This document shows, in pieces, positions 31,608-35,171 of a stretch of DNA of 64,000 nucleotides (within the stretch, counting starts at the first letter, position 1; every line of letters starts with the position of its first letter). The DNA is from a virus, in the IMG/VR virus record IMGVR_UViG_3300022223_000004, positions 6,499-70,498 of that record; one strand, 5' to 3'. The notes under the pieces are model-generated. The model saw nothing but the letters and a program-made list of their open reading frames with translations, did not search any database and was not told the DNA's origin. The position numbers and the translations under genes were made by a program.

Positions 31608-32039
31608 TTAGCCTGAAAACTGTTCTAAGACGCTATTGCAAAGTCTATTGATCTCTGGATCTTCTCCGTTAAGAGAGTAAACCTCTCTGATAACGTCAAG
31701 TAATTTTCGTATGATTTCCTGTTGGTCAGATATTTCACCTAAATACATCTGTTCTTTAACTTTATGCTCTGTTGGATGCCATGTTGTTGCTGTATCTTTC
31801 AGAAACTCATCCACTTGAATCTCTAAAGACTCCATGTGTTCTACTGCCCGACATTCGTCGAAGTCAGTCTCTGAATCAAACCTTGCTCTCTCCAAGTGTT
31901 CTTGCGCTTCCCTGAATGACCTAAGCAAAGAGACGGCTTTGTCCTCTGCTGGGTGCCATGTGGATATAGGCTCAAAATAACTTGTTCCTTCATCGCTATG
32001 GACTACTCTTGATAAACCGCAAGGGCATTTATCTGTCAT
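31608..32039 (-). CDS. hypothetical protein (143 aa)
   Basis: AGGAGG RBS; internal 'TWHP.E.K' duplicated. Confidence 0.65.
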   Translation of the reverse strand: MTDKCPCGLSRVVHSDEGTSYFEPISTWHPAEDKAVSLLRSFREAQEHLERARFDSETDFDECRAVEHMESLEIQVDEFLKDTATTWHPTEHKVKEQMYLGEISDQQEIIRKLLDVIREVYSLNGEDPEINRLCNSVLEQFSG

Positions 32040-32383
32040 TGGGTATCCTCCTGAGCTAATTTGTTAAGCACATATGACCCACCATGTTTACCACAAAAAT
32101 ATTTTCCATCTATTTTAAAAGATGCCGCTAGATCACAAGTTTCCTTGCCTTTGGGATTCCCTGGTCTGCCTCTGCCATGCCAAAATTTTCTAGTAGCAAG
32201 GGATAGCATGGCTCCACACTTAGGAAAAGACAATCTATCCGACTTTATCCTGATTACTTTTGTTGGAAGCTCCGACCCCTCTTGGCTTTCTTCCTCACCG
32301 TACAAAACCTTTTTCATTGTCTCATTACGGTCATGTATGTAATCCATCCAATCTTCTTCATCTTCTTCAAAGTCATTATCCAT
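32036..32383 (-). CDS. hypothetical protein with C-terminal C/H motif
   Basis: AGGAGG RBS; 'C...C...IDGKYFCGKH'. Confidence 0.65.
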   Translation of the reverse strand: MDNDFEEDEEDWMDYIHDRNETMKKVLYGEEESQEGSELPTKVIRIKSDRLSFPKCGAMLSLATRKFWHGRGRPGNPKGKETCDLAASFKIDGKYFCGKHGGSYVLNKLAQEDTQ

Positions 32384-32417
32384 CTCTTCCTCCTTTTGGA
32401 TTAAAATCCCTCATTGT

Positions 32418-32616
32418 TGGCGGCTGGGGCAGGATTCGAACCTGCATGGAACGGCTGGCACTTTTGATAGGGGAGCATAACCGCATTCCACTCCTATCTC
32501 CTGTCAATTCAGGTCTACCGATGACTAATGCCTTATAAGGGTATGTCGTCTTAACCCCCTTCACCACTGGCCGTATGCTCTACACCAGTTGCGTCTTCCA
32601 ATTCCGCCACCCAGCC
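32418..32616 (-). ncRNA. 199-nt tRNA-like RNA with a greatly enlarged central region
   Basis: Acceptor stem GGCTGGG/CCCAGCC + G + CCA; Leu/Ser-type D arm TGGCGGAATTGGAAGACGC; T arm GCAGG-TTCGAAT-CCTGC; about 120 extra nt between them. Confidence 0.8.
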
Positions 32617-32623
32617 ATAAAAC

Positions 32624-33070
32624 CTAAAAAGCTTTGCCTCCTTCGGATTGCCTTTCTTCCCTCTTATGGTCACTCCGTACTTTATTATATGCCATTTTTT
32701 CTACAATGGTCCCGGATACGTCAAAACCCTTAGCACCCATATAATCCAAAAGGCGGATCAGTAGGTCCAAACATTCTACCTCTTCCGCACTTCTGTGCGG
32801 CAGATGATCATCTGGTAGTCCTTTCCTACTTCCTTCTAAAATCTCGGAAGCTTCGGAATGTATCAGGGCCAGTTTAGTGGCAAAGAAATAGGGTAAAGCT
32901 TCAGGACAAACTTTCTCAAAAAGGTCATAATCATCCCACCACCCTGCCTCTCTATTTATTCTGTGGACCTTTTTAGCCAAATCGGTTAAATTTTCAAATC
33001 CTGAGTATTGAGGATCCGAGTGGGCAATTTTAATTAATTCACTTAAATGCATACCGATATTGGATGCCAT
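32624..33070 (-). CDS. MazG-like NTP pyrophosphohydrolase
   Basis: 'KLALIHSEASEILEG.RK', 'EEVE..D.LIRLLD', 'EKMAYN..R...GGKAF'. Confidence 0.85.
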   Translation of the reverse strand: MASNIGMHLSELIKIAHSDPQYSGFENLTDLAKKVHRINREAGWWDDYDLFEKVCPEALPYFFATKLALIHSEASEILEGSRKGLPDDHLPHRSAEEVECLDLLIRLLDYMGAKGFDVSGTIVEKMAYNKVRSDHKREERQSEGGKAF

Positions 33071-34405: not shown

Positions 34406-34653
34406 TATAGTTTCCTCCTTCTCTCCTCTTTAACAAAAGAGGATATTAATAAAACCAATTTATTAAAGATTAAACTTTCCTTACTCATAATCCTATAATC
34501 TGATTGGAGCACCTCTCTAGTGGTATACCTAAGTCCACACCCAGTACATTCTCTCCTCCTCCGAATAGTCCCTTCCTTTTTAGAAAGTCTGGTTTCCAAA
34601 ACAGATGAAAGGGTGTGTTTACAGTATGGACATTGCATGTCCTTTCTCCTCAA
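34405..34653 (-). CDS. NrdR-like zinc-ribbon protein lacking the ATP cone
   Basis: 'MQCPYC....SSVLETR......IRRRRECTGCGLRYTTRE' matches the NrdR N-terminus; only 82 aa. Confidence 0.8.
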   Translation of the reverse strand: MRRKDMQCPYCKHTLSSVLETRLSKKEGTIRRRRECTGCGLRYTTREVLQSDYRIMSKESLIFNKLVLLISSFVKEERRRKL

Positions 34654-35171
34654 TCAAATAAAGTTTTTGGACGGGATAGCTCTTTCACATACTCAAACAT
34701 CTCAATATCCCCCTGCCTTACGGTATTCATTTTTTTGTAATTCATTTTTTTCCTTAAAGAGATGATCGGGACATTATCTGTCCTCAGTTGGGTAATTATC
34801 CTAAGACACCCTAACTCCTTTGCGAGCTTTTCAGCCCTTTTTGTCAGAGTTGCCGCAATCCCTTGTCTTTTATAATCATCGGACACGGCAGTGTACTTTA
34901 TTTGGAAATCCCCTTTAGTGATTAAAGAAGGTGGCTTGCCCTTTACCTTTCTGTGGTTCCACACAAGGAATCCCATCACTTCCCCAGTCTCAGAATATTC
35001 AATAATTACCCGATTGTCCTCAATGGCATTGGCTAAAAAAATTGTCTGGACATGCCCCAAAAAAAGCTTAGTAGAAGGCTGTTGGAGTATCTTCATAAGT
35101 ATTTTAGCCAAGTCCCTTGCAGACATTTTAATGGGACGTTTTTTGAGTTTCATTGTTTTTATTTCCTCCAT
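34650..35171 (-). CDS. GNAT acetyltransferase
   Basis: 'AVSDDYKRQGIAATL', 'GC.RI....R.DN'. Confidence 0.85.
   Translation of the reverse strand: MEEIKTMKLKKRPIKMSARDLAKILMKILQQPSTKLFLGHVQTIFLANAIEDNRVIIEYSETGEVMGFLVWNHRKVKGKPPSLITKGDFQIKYTAVSDDYKRQGIAATLTKRAEKLAKELGCLRIITQLRTDNVPIISLRKKMNYKKMNTVRQGDIEMFEYVKELSRPKTLFD

What the first reader, a model, noticed from the sequence alone, without database searches (positions are those of the whole stretch)
32418..32616. 199-nt tRNA-like RNA: intact acceptor, D and T arms and CCA around a ~120-nt structured insert
Seen: a 7-bp acceptor stem, G73 and encoded CCA, a class-II-type D arm and a canonical T arm. The centre has a non-canonical anticodon arm (ACUGGU-GUAGAGCAUACG-GCCAGU, too large a loop), a hairpin AAGGG..CCCUU, and a multibranch domain closed by GGCAUU/AGUGCC that contains GUCA..UGAC and GAUAGG..CCUAUC helices. 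A second GCCAG just before the T arm allows an alternative fold with the insert inside the anticodon loop. No G3-U70 pair and no tag ORF, so not tmRNA; the insert is too short for a typical group I intron. Inference: a tRNA scaffold (RNase P/CCA maturation, possible serylation via G73) carrying a cargo domain, for example a decoy for anticodon nucleases or a ribosome-rescue or regulatory RNA.
Basis: partly seen in the sequence, partly recalled or inferred. Interest (0 to 1): 0.8.

Follow-up and report, generated by a model that had tools for sequence, protein, structure and literature searches.

The report
Phage tRNA-like gene with large insert
A phage gene that looks like a leucine tRNA at both ends but carries about 145 extra bases where the anticodon arm should be; similar unexplained genes occur in many uncultured phages, so it is probably a working RNA of unknown job, not an ordinary tRNA.

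Summary
The element is real and lies on the minus strand (window 32616->32418, 199 nt). It fills the gap between two co-oriented genes of a 70.5-kb siphovirus-like IMG/VR contig. The tRNA parts are intact: 7-bp acceptor, Leu-type D arm, canonical T arm, G73 and an encoded CCA. Between them lie 145 nt with no canonical anticodon arm.

The proposed insert helices exist, but they are no more stable than in shuffled sequence (z -0.39). No homologue of the insert was found, so conservation could not be tested.

ARAGORN's intron call, tRNA-Ser(AGA) with a 117-nt intron, is worthless: 252 of 300 shuffled inserts get such a call. Rfam finds no group I intron, ribozyme or tmRNA. No bulge-helix-bulge motif yields a tRNA.

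New context: a pattern scan of IMG/VR found 37 further Leu-type scaffolds with cores of about 100-147 nt. Of 22 unique strict ones, 19 have A73 and none encodes CCA. Several families show compensatory changes in the core, one including a pseudoknot.

Best reading (0.4): a processed, non-decoding tRNA mimic carrying a cargo domain. Rivals are an unclassified tRNA intron (0.2) and a recently disrupted tRNA gene (0.25). The function is unknown.

The parts
32418..32616 (-). whole tRNA-like RNA, 199 nt (RNA position p = 32617 - window coordinate)
   Evidence: single copy in the 70.5-kb record
32610..32616 (-). acceptor stem 5' strand GGCUGGG (RNA 1-7)
   Evidence: pairs 7/7 with RNA 189-195, read; also drawn by ARAGORN
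32591..32607 (-). Leu-type D arm GCGG-AAUUGGAAGA-CGC (RNA 10-26)
   Evidence: RNA 1-19 is identical to the start of tRNA-Leu(UAA) genes of Opitutales-type bacteria
32566..32589 (-). non-canonical hairpin ACUGGU - 12-nt loop - GCCAGU at the anticodon-arm position (RNA 28-51)
   Evidence: No 7-nt loop is present, so it is not an anticodon arm
32537..32561 (-). hairpin AAGGG..CCCUU (RNA 56-80)
   Evidence: in the MFE fold; not tested by covariation
32457..32532 (-). three-way domain closed by GGCAUU/AGUGCC (RNA 85-160)
   Evidence: in the MFE fold; z -1.45, 27 of 300 shuffles as stable
32446..32459 (-). second GCCAG plus CCGUUCCAU linker before the T stem (RNA 158-171). CGUUCCAU could pair with GUGGAAUG (RNA 126-133) as a pseudoknot, or with the D loop
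   Evidence: the second GCCAG is used by ARAGORN -i as the 3' anticodon stem. The D-loop pairing appears in the MFE fold. The pseudoknot was read by eye and not tested
32429..32445 (-). T arm GCAGG-UUCGAAU-CCUGC (RNA 172-188)
   Evidence: Rfam RF00005 positions 46-63, 14.4 bits
32418..32428 (-). acceptor 3' strand CCCAGCC, discriminator G73, encoded CCA (RNA 189-199)
32624..33070 (-). upstream gene, MazG-like pyrophosphatase; its stop codon lies 7 nt before RNA position 1
   Evidence: phrog_5658, E 1.2e-48; ORF list
32036..32383 (-). downstream gene (115 aa, no family); its start lies 34 nt after the CCA, preceded by GGAGG

Best explanation
The locus encodes a tRNA-Leu-derived, non-decoding tRNA-like RNA.

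Proposed mechanism:
- The RNA is transcribed as part of the MazG-to-downstream-gene message.
- It is cut out by RNase P at G1 and trimmed at the 3' end to the encoded CCA (inferred).
- It folds into the acceptor/T minihelix plus the D/T elbow of a tRNA. The sequence shows that all the elements needed for this are intact.
- A domain of about 145 nt projects from the place where the anticodon and variable arms belong.
- Because it has no 7-nt anticodon loop, it cannot read codons.
- It most likely works as a tRNA mimic. The scaffold would give processing, stability and recognition by tRNA-binding proteins. The centre would be the working or bait part.

It is one divergent, singleton example of a widespread and so far undescribed set of phage genes. 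These have a Leu-type scaffold around a structured core. This one differs from the others in having G73 and an encoded CCA. Its actual target or function is not known.
For: Scaffold and position:
- The scaffold is intact: 7/7 acceptor pairs, U8, G18G19, A15/U48, a UUCGAAU T loop, G73 and CCA.
- Its 5' 19 nt are identical to bacterial tRNA-Leu(UAA) genes.
- The element fills a 241-nt gap between co-oriented genes. No minus-strand promoter or terminator lies next to it. Release therefore has to be by processing.
- It lacks a canonical anticodon arm: ARAGORN default finds 0 genes, RF00005 matches only the T arm, and the best local hairpin has a 12-nt loop.

The wider class:
- 37 of the 118 IMG/VR pattern hits examined carry the same kind of scaffold with no canonical tRNA inside.
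- 25 of these 37 pass a strict scaffold scanner, giving 22 unique sequences.
- 25 of the 37 loci hold no other tRNA.

Covariation in the cores of other families:
- Family A (4 sequences): 96.7% of cells paired. 18 pairs changed on both sides, against 6.2 +/- 2.0 in shuffles (0 of 500 shuffles reach it) and 3-5 in slid controls. One helix is a pseudoknot.
- L138/L209: 9 two-sided changes, 0 of 35 pairs broken.
- L124/L136: 2 two-sided changes.
- L146/L195: 4 two-sided changes.

The class cores are therefore selected RNA structures, not debris.

Rfam's tRNA model spans four such genes end to end with 100-131-nt gaps. No intron or ribozyme family matched in the 12 loci scanned.
Against: - This particular insert has no relative. 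Searches covered the phages database, 80 loci of TerL relatives, 5 whole related phage records, IMG/VR by a 20-mer and 39 other class cores (best z 2.49).
- It is no more stable than shuffled sequence. Nothing shows directly that its centre is structured or selected.
- It departs from the class in G73 and encoded CCA; the class has A73 in 19 of 22 and encoded CCA in 0 of 22.
- The class was found with a pattern that demanded a Leu-type D arm and a gap of 120-150 nt. Its apparent uniformity is therefore partly built in.
- No transcript, processing or aminoacylation data exist.
Confidence: 0.4

Rival explanations
1. It is a real tRNA gene interrupted by an unclassified intron, like the 'enigmatic' introns reported in Lak megaphage tRNAs. 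Removal of about 117 nt (RNA 40-156) would leave an 82-nt tRNA with stem CUGGU/GCCAG, loop GUAGAGU (U33, anticodon AGA, G37) and a 9-nt variable loop.
For: - ARAGORN with introns allowed gives exactly this model. The insert sits at the classical 37/38 position, and the duplicated GCCAG offers a ready 3' stem.
- Phage tRNA introns of unknown type are in print: Devoto 2019, PMC6784885 (passages read), and PMC13037316 (passage read).
- At least one class member (L092) keeps an intact class-II variable arm before the T stem. There the insert lies in the anticodon loop.
Against: - With the true scaffold and a dinucleotide-shuffled insert, ARAGORN -i still calls an 'intron tRNA' in 252 of 300 cases, 11 of them at the same position. 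The call therefore carries no weight.
- Rfam gives no group I or II hit at E<=10.
- No bulge-helix-bulge motif yields a tRNA.
- No U.G 5' splice site plus terminal G gives a cloverleaf (read).
- The product would combine a Leu-type D arm, G73, A34 and an unpaired 9-nt variable loop. That matches no known identity set (from my own knowledge of identity sets).
- No intron-less allele was found.
Confidence: 0.2
2. It is a tRNA-Leu-type gene recently broken by an insertion or illegitimate recombination. On this view it is a young pseudogene with no function of its own, tolerated in an intergenic gap.
For: - The insert is a singleton, and the TerL relatives examined lack the gene.
- The insert folds no better than shuffles.
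- It is flanked by a 5-nt direct repeat, GCCAG (RNA 46-50 and 158-162).
- RNA 34-47 resembles the D-stem/anticodon-stem junction of an ordinary tRNA, 13 of 14 identical to a tRNA in L137 at E 2.3. This hints at patchwork origin.
Against: - Not one scaffold position has decayed.
- The phage genome is compact, and the element exactly fills its gap.
- No second copy of the insert exists in the genome or in IMG/VR by 20-mer, so no mobile element can be named.
- Analogous genes in other phages are clearly under selection.
Confidence: 0.25
3. It acts in cis on the polycistronic mRNA. It could be a tRNA-like RNase P 'punctuation' site that separates and stabilises the flanking messages. Alternatively it could be a leader that controls the downstream gene, possibly through the small ORF 32376-32567.
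For: - It is embedded in an operon without its own promoter or terminator.
- The core holds two AGGAG motifs followed by AUG. This gives a weak Rfam Mu-gpT-DE match, 14.2 bits against a gathering score of 49.
- The ORF from that AUG ends 5 nt past the next gene's AUG (read).
Against: - The 63-aa ORF has no Pfam family and no homologue among near-length proteins.
- A punctuation site would not need 145 extra nt or an encoded CCA.
Confidence: 0.1

Closest known systems
'Enigmatic' introns in Lak megaphage and jumbo-phage tRNA genes (Devoto et al. 2019, PMC6784885; PMC13037316)
   Same: Both are phage tRNA genes with an intact cloverleaf frame, interrupted by inserts that Rfam cannot classify. 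Some inserts hold tRNA-like pieces, as in class members L092, L095 and L119.
   Different: The Lak inserts were defined against intron-less alleles and leave a normal anticodon arm. Here no intron-less allele exists, and no convincing mature tRNA can be drawn. The host phage is a 70-kb siphovirus using the standard code. The Lak intron sequences are in supplements that I could not open.
Phage T4 species 1 RNA (rnaC, 139 nt), a stable RNA of unknown function in the T4 tRNA cluster
   Same: Both are phage-encoded, longer than a tRNA, end in a canonical T arm (CCGGG-UUCGAAU-CCCGG) followed by an acceptor-like 3' strand, and are co-transcribed with other genes. The function of rnaC has stayed unknown.
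   Different: T4 rnaC has no Leu-type D arm and only 5 of 7 acceptor pairs by my reading. It lies in a tRNA array. It shows no sequence similarity to this RNA.
tmRNA
   Same: Both have tRNA-like ends (acceptor, T arm, CCA) around a large, pseudoknot-rich centre. tmRNA is charged by a synthetase that ignores the anticodon.
   Different: Here the pair is C3-G70 rather than G3.U70, a full D arm is present, there is no tag reading frame, the RNA is 199 nt rather than about 360, and ARAGORN -m gives no call.
Group I intron in cyanobacterial and plastid tRNA-Leu(UAA)
   Same: The host gene is the same type, a Leu tRNA with the GGCGGAAUUGG D arm, and the interruption lies in the anticodon region.
   Different: Those introns are about 250 nt with a P3-P9 core (recalled). 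Here the interruption is 117-145 nt, Rfam gives no Intron_gpI hit at E<=10, and no workable splice sites exist.
Engineered 'tRNA scaffold' for recombinant RNA (Ponchon and Dardel 2007; recalled, not read)
   Same: The architecture is the same: cargo replaces the anticodon arm, while the acceptor, D and T arms provide processing and stability.
   Different: That scaffold is a laboratory design. A natural counterpart has not, to my knowledge, been described.

Membership tests
canonical bacterial tRNA (Rfam RF00005 / ARAGORN) | 7-bp acceptor stem, D arm with G18G19, and T arm with a UUCRANY loop | tested here: met
   read; drawn by ARAGORN; T arm matched by RF00005
canonical bacterial tRNA (Rfam RF00005 / ARAGORN) | 5-bp anticodon stem with a 7-nt loop directly after position 26, and a score above the curated threshold | tested here: not met
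   ARAGORN default finds 0 genes. RF00005 gives 14.4 bits against a gathering score of 29, T arm only. The best local hairpin has a 12-nt loop
tRNA with group I intron | group I core (P3-P9), a U.G pair at the 5' splice site, a terminal G, and exons that join into a cloverleaf | tested here: not met
   no Intron_gpI match at E<=10. A U.G pair exists in ACUGGU/GCCAGU, but no 3' site gives a 7-nt loop (read)
tRNA with archaeal/eukaryal-type intron | bulge-helix-bulge motif (two 3-nt bulges around 4 bp) at the exon-intron junctions | tested here: not met
   At the ARAGORN junction only 2 of 4 central pairs form (read). A scan of the whole RNA gave 7 relaxed hits, and none leaves a tRNA
tmRNA | G3.U70 pair, tag reading frame with resume codon, and pseudoknots PK1-PK4 | tested here: not met
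   the pair is C3-G70; ARAGORN -m makes no tmRNA call; Rfam finds none
Lak-type phage tRNA introns | insert boundaries defined by alleles with and without the insert, and the insert conserved where present | not testable with these tools
   No allele with or without the insert was found.
phage Leu-type scaffold RNAs with expanded core (set defined here) | 7-bp acceptor, Leu-type D arm and T arm, with more than 90 nt between D and T arms and no canonical anticodon arm | tested here: met
   (own locus L001, 196 nt to the discriminator)
phage Leu-type scaffold RNAs with expanded core (set defined here) | A73 discriminator and no encoded CCA (19 of 22 and 22 of 22 unique members respectively) | tested here: not met
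   this RNA has G73 and an encoded CCA. L297 and L103 also have G73
phage Leu-type scaffold RNAs with expanded core (set defined here) | core conserved with compensatory base changes among relatives | not testable with these tools
   this core has no relative. The feature is shown only for other families

The most novel reading that the evidence does not exclude
This gene and the other Leu-type scaffolds found here form a widespread, undescribed class of phage RNAs. In this reading the acceptor/D/T frame of tRNA-Leu is kept, including the anticodon-independent LeuRS identity nucleotide A73 in most members. It serves as a chassis for diverse, selected and partly pseudoknotted cores. The cores could be a new kind of self-processing intron or ribozyme. 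Alternatively the RNAs could be chargeable, non-decoding tRNA mimics used against host tRNA-directed defences or to hijack translation factors.
Probability: 0.25. Interest if true: 0.85.

Novelty: new variant of a known kind. Interest (0 to 1): 0.55.

Why it matters
Phage tRNA-like RNAs that are not adaptors have been known since T4 species 1 RNA. They reappeared as 'enigmatic introns' in megaphages, yet none has a known function.

This locus is a clean case. It has a perfect tRNA-Leu-type frame with G73-CCA and no anticodon arm, and it sits alone in a small lytic-type phage.

The search it prompted shows that such frames around covarying cores are common in uncultured phages. They are missed by ARAGORN at default settings. 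Only 4 of the 12 class loci scanned with Rfam got a full-length tRNA match. The one GenBank record found to match a class member carries no annotation.

If these RNAs are stable and charged, they would be a natural counterpart of the engineered tRNA scaffold. They would also be a new layer of phage-host conflict around tRNA. If they are spliced, they would define a new bacterial intron type. Either result is directly testable with a short in-vitro transcript.

Tried and rejected
- **Group I or II intron, self-cleaving ribozyme, riboswitch, tmRNA, Y RNA.** Rfam found no match at gathering thresholds in the window. At E<=10 on the locus nothing appeared beyond a T-arm hit and two noise hits. No such family matched in 12 class loci.
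- **ARAGORN intron model.** Rejected as evidence after the shuffle control, 252 of 300.
- **Bulge-helix-bulge intron.** Rejected.
- **Small protein gene (63-aa ORF 32376-32567).** No Pfam family. No homologue among proteins of 34-111 aa; longer and shorter proteins were not searched.
- **Antisense target in the phage's own genome.** The only non-trivial match is one 13-mer, RNA 145-157 against the sense transcript near window 42419. By my own estimate about 0.1-0.6 such matches are expected by chance. That script also printed the trivial self-complement, which I ignored.
- **Conserved protein partner.** Among ORFs within 3.5 kb of the 37 class genes and this one, no protein cluster is shared by more than 3 RNA families.
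- **Synteny.** Six MazG-related loci and 80 TerL-related loci hold no homologue. The 115-aa downstream protein has no relative in IMG/VR.
- **Exact 28-mer of the T arm plus acceptor in IMG/VR.** 0 hits.
- **Metagenome scan.** 11 loci; 10 are adjacent tRNA-Leu plus tRNA-Tyr genes and 1 (L209) is a class member.
- **Sequencing runs.** No RNA holder is listed. Two DNA sediment runs hold the stretch, and one of them may be the source of this contig.
- **Laying contigs.** This gave no variant of this RNA. One 224-nt contig of run X2 has the same T arm (22 of 22) and D arm (21 of 22). It has 89 rather than 145 letters between them and different flanks. Its middle sequence was not given.
- **Cultured-phage records.** L124 and L177 have no match. 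L098 matches one unannotated faecal 'Bacteriophage sp.'.
- **Literature.** Six full-text searches turned up, in the listings I read, only the Lak and jumbo-phage intron reports as relevant. The passages read in PMC7886860, PMC7609411 and the Borges preprint do not mention such genes.
- **Errors to note.** One alignment (A2) was made with a wrong start coordinate for L138, and I do not use it. My notebook says 12 tRNA-Leu genes; the correct count is 11 of 79.

Full report
**What is there.** The feature is on the minus strand. Reading window 32616 down to 32418 gives a 199-nt RNA. Its parts are:
- acceptor stem GGCUGGG/CCCAGCC, 7 of 7 Watson-Crick pairs
- U8
- D arm GCGG-AAUUGGAAGA-CGC
- T arm GCAGG-UUCGAAU-CCUGC
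- discriminator G73 and an encoded CCA

Between the D arm and the T arm lie 145 nt instead of the usual 35 or so of a class-II tRNA.

**Setting.** The window is bases 6499-70498 of a 70,498-base IMG/VR virus record, which CheckV rates 76% complete.
- All large ORFs are on the minus strand. Those annotated include terminase, portal, tape measure, tail fibre, DNA polymerase, helicases and an SbcC-like nuclease.
- The closest cultured relatives are Vibrio siphoviruses of the SSP002/MAR10 type. Large-terminase identity is 45.6-48.7% and DNA polymerase identity is 32.9%. A bacterial host is therefore likely.
- The RNA starts 7 nt after the stop codon of a MazG-like pyrophosphatase gene. It ends 34 nt before the start of a 115-aa ORF with a GGAGG ribosome-binding site.
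- No minus-strand promoter or terminator lies beside it. It must be released from a longer transcript.
- It is the only tRNA-like gene in the record and is present once.

**Is it more than chance?** The scaffold certainly is. Its first 19 nt are identical to the start of tRNA-Leu(UAA) genes in 11 of the 79 bacterial contigs that contain this 19-mer. The other 68 are chance matches, mostly in high-GC sequence without a tRNA call. The 11 contigs are titled Puniceicoccaceae, Opitutaceae, Opitutia/Opitutae or Thalassobacterium. The frame is therefore Leu type, not Ser type.

The insert is not beyond chance by folding energy:

| Region | z-score | Shuffles as stable |
|---|---|---|
| whole RNA | -1.50 | 16 of 200 |
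| 145-nt centre | -0.39 | 104 of 300 |
| GGCAUU..AGUGCC domain | -1.45 | 27 of 300 |

**What it is not.**
- ARAGORN at default settings finds nothing.
- Rfam finds nothing at gathering thresholds in the whole window. At E<=10 it finds only the T arm (14.4 bits, gathering score 29) and noise. So there is no group I or II intron, known ribozyme, riboswitch or tmRNA.
I kept the true scaffold and dinucleotide-shuffled the centre. It then called an intron-bearing tRNA in 252 of 300 cases. The call says nothing.
- At the proposed junction the central helix of a bulge-helix-bulge motif forms only 2 of 4 pairs. A scan of the whole RNA found 7 relaxed motifs, and none leaves a tRNA.
- The U.G pair closing ACUGGU/GCCAGU looks like a group I P1 helix. 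No 3' site gives a 7-nt loop.
- The 63-aa ORF overlapping the 3' two-thirds has no Pfam family and no homologue of similar length.

**Relatives of this RNA.** None was found. The searches were:
- the cultured-phage collection, which gave only a 33-nt T-arm match to Klebsiella phage tRNA-Met
- 6 MazG-linked loci
- 80 terminase-linked loci
- 5 whole related phage records, searched for any Leu-type D arm, with 0 of 5 positive
- IMG/VR, by a 28-mer and by an insert 20-mer

A second sediment run holds a 224-nt contig with the same T arm (22 of 22) and D arm (21 of 22). It has 89 rather than 145 letters between them, and its flanks differ; I read them as a different acceptor stem. Its centre was not shown.

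**A wider class.**
Most are two adjacent tRNAs. In 37 of them ARAGORN finds no canonical tRNA.
- My own strict scanner requires a 7/7 acceptor stem, a D stem with GG in the loop and a 5-bp T stem. It confirmed 25 of the 37, giving 22 unique sequences of 168-198 nt. Of these, 19 have A73 and none encodes CCA.
- 25 of the 37 loci contain no other tRNA.
- No neighbouring protein family recurs across more than 3 RNA families.
- Rfam's tRNA model spans four of these genes end to end at 29.4-36.1 bits, with gaps of 100-131 nt. No intron or ribozyme family matched in the 12 loci scanned.
- A further subfamily keeps one acceptor stem (AGUCAGG/CCUGACU-A) with centres of roughly 20-140 nt. One phage can carry several copies, in one case (L135) near a GOLLD RNA.
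- Normal tRNA-Leu genes in the same loci almost all have 4- to 7-bp anticodon stems with 5- to 9-nt loops. With very few exceptions the long ones do not.
- This class was defined by my search pattern, so its Leu-type uniformity and its size range are partly imposed. Other tRNA types with inserts also turned up, for example L112 and L197.

**Are the centres functional in the class?** Yes, in the families that could be aligned.
- In family A (L108, L126, L177, L204), 38 pairs in 7 helices are 96.7% paired. Eighteen pairs changed on both sides. Shuffles gave 6.2 +/- 2.0, with 0 of 500 reaching the observed value, and slid controls gave 3-5. One helix (columns 47-51 with 163-167) crosses another, so the centre is pseudoknotted.
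- L138 and L209 are 72% identical and show 9 two-sided changes, with no broken pair among 35.
- L124/L136 show 2 two-sided changes in one hairpin, and L146/L195 show 4.
- Our centre shows no significant similarity to any of 39 other centres. The best z is 2.49.

**Interpretation.** Three things are shown:
- an intact tRNA-Leu-type top half and elbow
- no anticodon arm
- operon-internal placement

Membership of a recurring phage gene type whose centres are under selection is shown only in part. This RNA has G73 and an encoded CCA, and its centre is unique.

The rest is inferred: RNase P and 3' processing to a stable 199-nt RNA that mimics a tRNA without decoding. From my own knowledge, LeuRS, like AlaRS for tmRNA, does not read the anticodon, and A73 is its main identity element. 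The A73 members could therefore be leucylated. This G73 member probably could not, and it lacks the regular long variable arm that SerRS uses. I put the mimic-with-cargo reading at 0.4.

An unclassified intron (0.2) stays possible, because such introns are in print for Lak phages. I read the 'intron' passages of PMC6784885 and one passage of PMC13037316.

A recent disruption of a tRNA gene (0.25) fits the singleton, unremarkable insert and the GCCAG direct repeat. It fits poorly with the flawless scaffold.

A cis-acting processing or leader role (0.1) fits the operon context and the AGGAG-AGGAG-AUG stretch.

**Comparison with known systems.**
- The closest in print are the Lak 'enigmatic' tRNA introns and T4 species 1 RNA.
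- T4 species 1 RNA (rnaC, 139 nt) has a canonical T arm and an unknown function. I read it in the T4 record.
- tmRNA shares the idea of tRNA ends around a pseudoknotted centre but fails every defining test here.
- The engineered tRNA scaffold (recalled) has the same architecture.
- I found no paper describing Leu-type scaffolds with expanded cores.

**Verdict.** The locus is a genuine, unusual tRNA-derived gene. The 'structured insert' claim is unproven, and the proposed functions are untested. The locus itself is a singleton with weak internal evidence. Its main value is that it points to a common, unannotated class of phage tRNA-framed RNAs.

Noticed in passing
L135:1051-1815 and L135:3644-4051; also L097 and L166: Some phages carry arrays of tRNA-like genes that share one acceptor stem (AGUCAGG/CCUGACU-A) and the same D and T arms. 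Their centres range from roughly 20 to 140 nt, and none has a canonical anticodon arm. In L135 a GOLLD RNA (298.8 bits) lies about 1.8 kb downstream.
   Followed up: partly
L108:1275-1454, L126:3616-3801, L177:8987-9169, L204:10220-10398: Family A of the scaffold RNAs has a conserved centre. It comprises a 6-bp helix, a GNRA hairpin, an 8-bp helix and a pseudoknot helix that ends at the T stem. All are supported by compensatory changes.
   Followed up: yes
L092, L095, L119 (candidate regions listed): The inserts of these tRNA-like genes contain a second T-arm-like hairpin. This recalls the 'tRNA inside a tRNA intron' reported for Lak phages. L092 keeps an intact class-II variable arm.
   Followed up: no
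L103:5417-5716 and L167:3101-3400: ARAGORN predicts a phage-encoded tmRNA gene (tag VKPKLRTDNPLLERAAA) within about 2.5 kb of the tRNA-like gene.
   Followed up: no
run X2, a 224-nt contig laid on window 32425-32446 and 32592-32613: A second sediment sample holds a tRNA-like gene with the same T and D arms and different flanks, which I read as a different acceptor stem (CAAUGGG/CCCAUUG). It has 89 rather than 145 nt between the arms. Its centre could not be read.
   Followed up: partly
window 32489-32514 (-) and 32376-32567 (-): The centre holds a small hairpin, then AGGAG twice, then AUG. This gives a weak Rfam Mu-gpT-DE match (14.2 bits, gathering score 49). The ORF from this AUG runs through the T arm and stops 5 nt past the next gene's AUG. 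It has no Pfam family and no homologue.
   Followed up: yes
L297:8963-9120: This is another G73 scaffold RNA (UGGUGGA/UCCACCA-G, about 155 nt). It carries the motif GUAAAACGA, which is also seen, followed by a hairpin, in L138 and L209, and as UAAAACGA in L095. An A-rich tract before the last 3' helix strand recurs in many families.
   Followed up: no
window 34650-35171 (-): A GNAT acetyltransferase gene (PF00583, E 2.1e-09) lies 2 kb upstream of the tRNA-like gene. No link to the RNA was shown.
   Followed up: no
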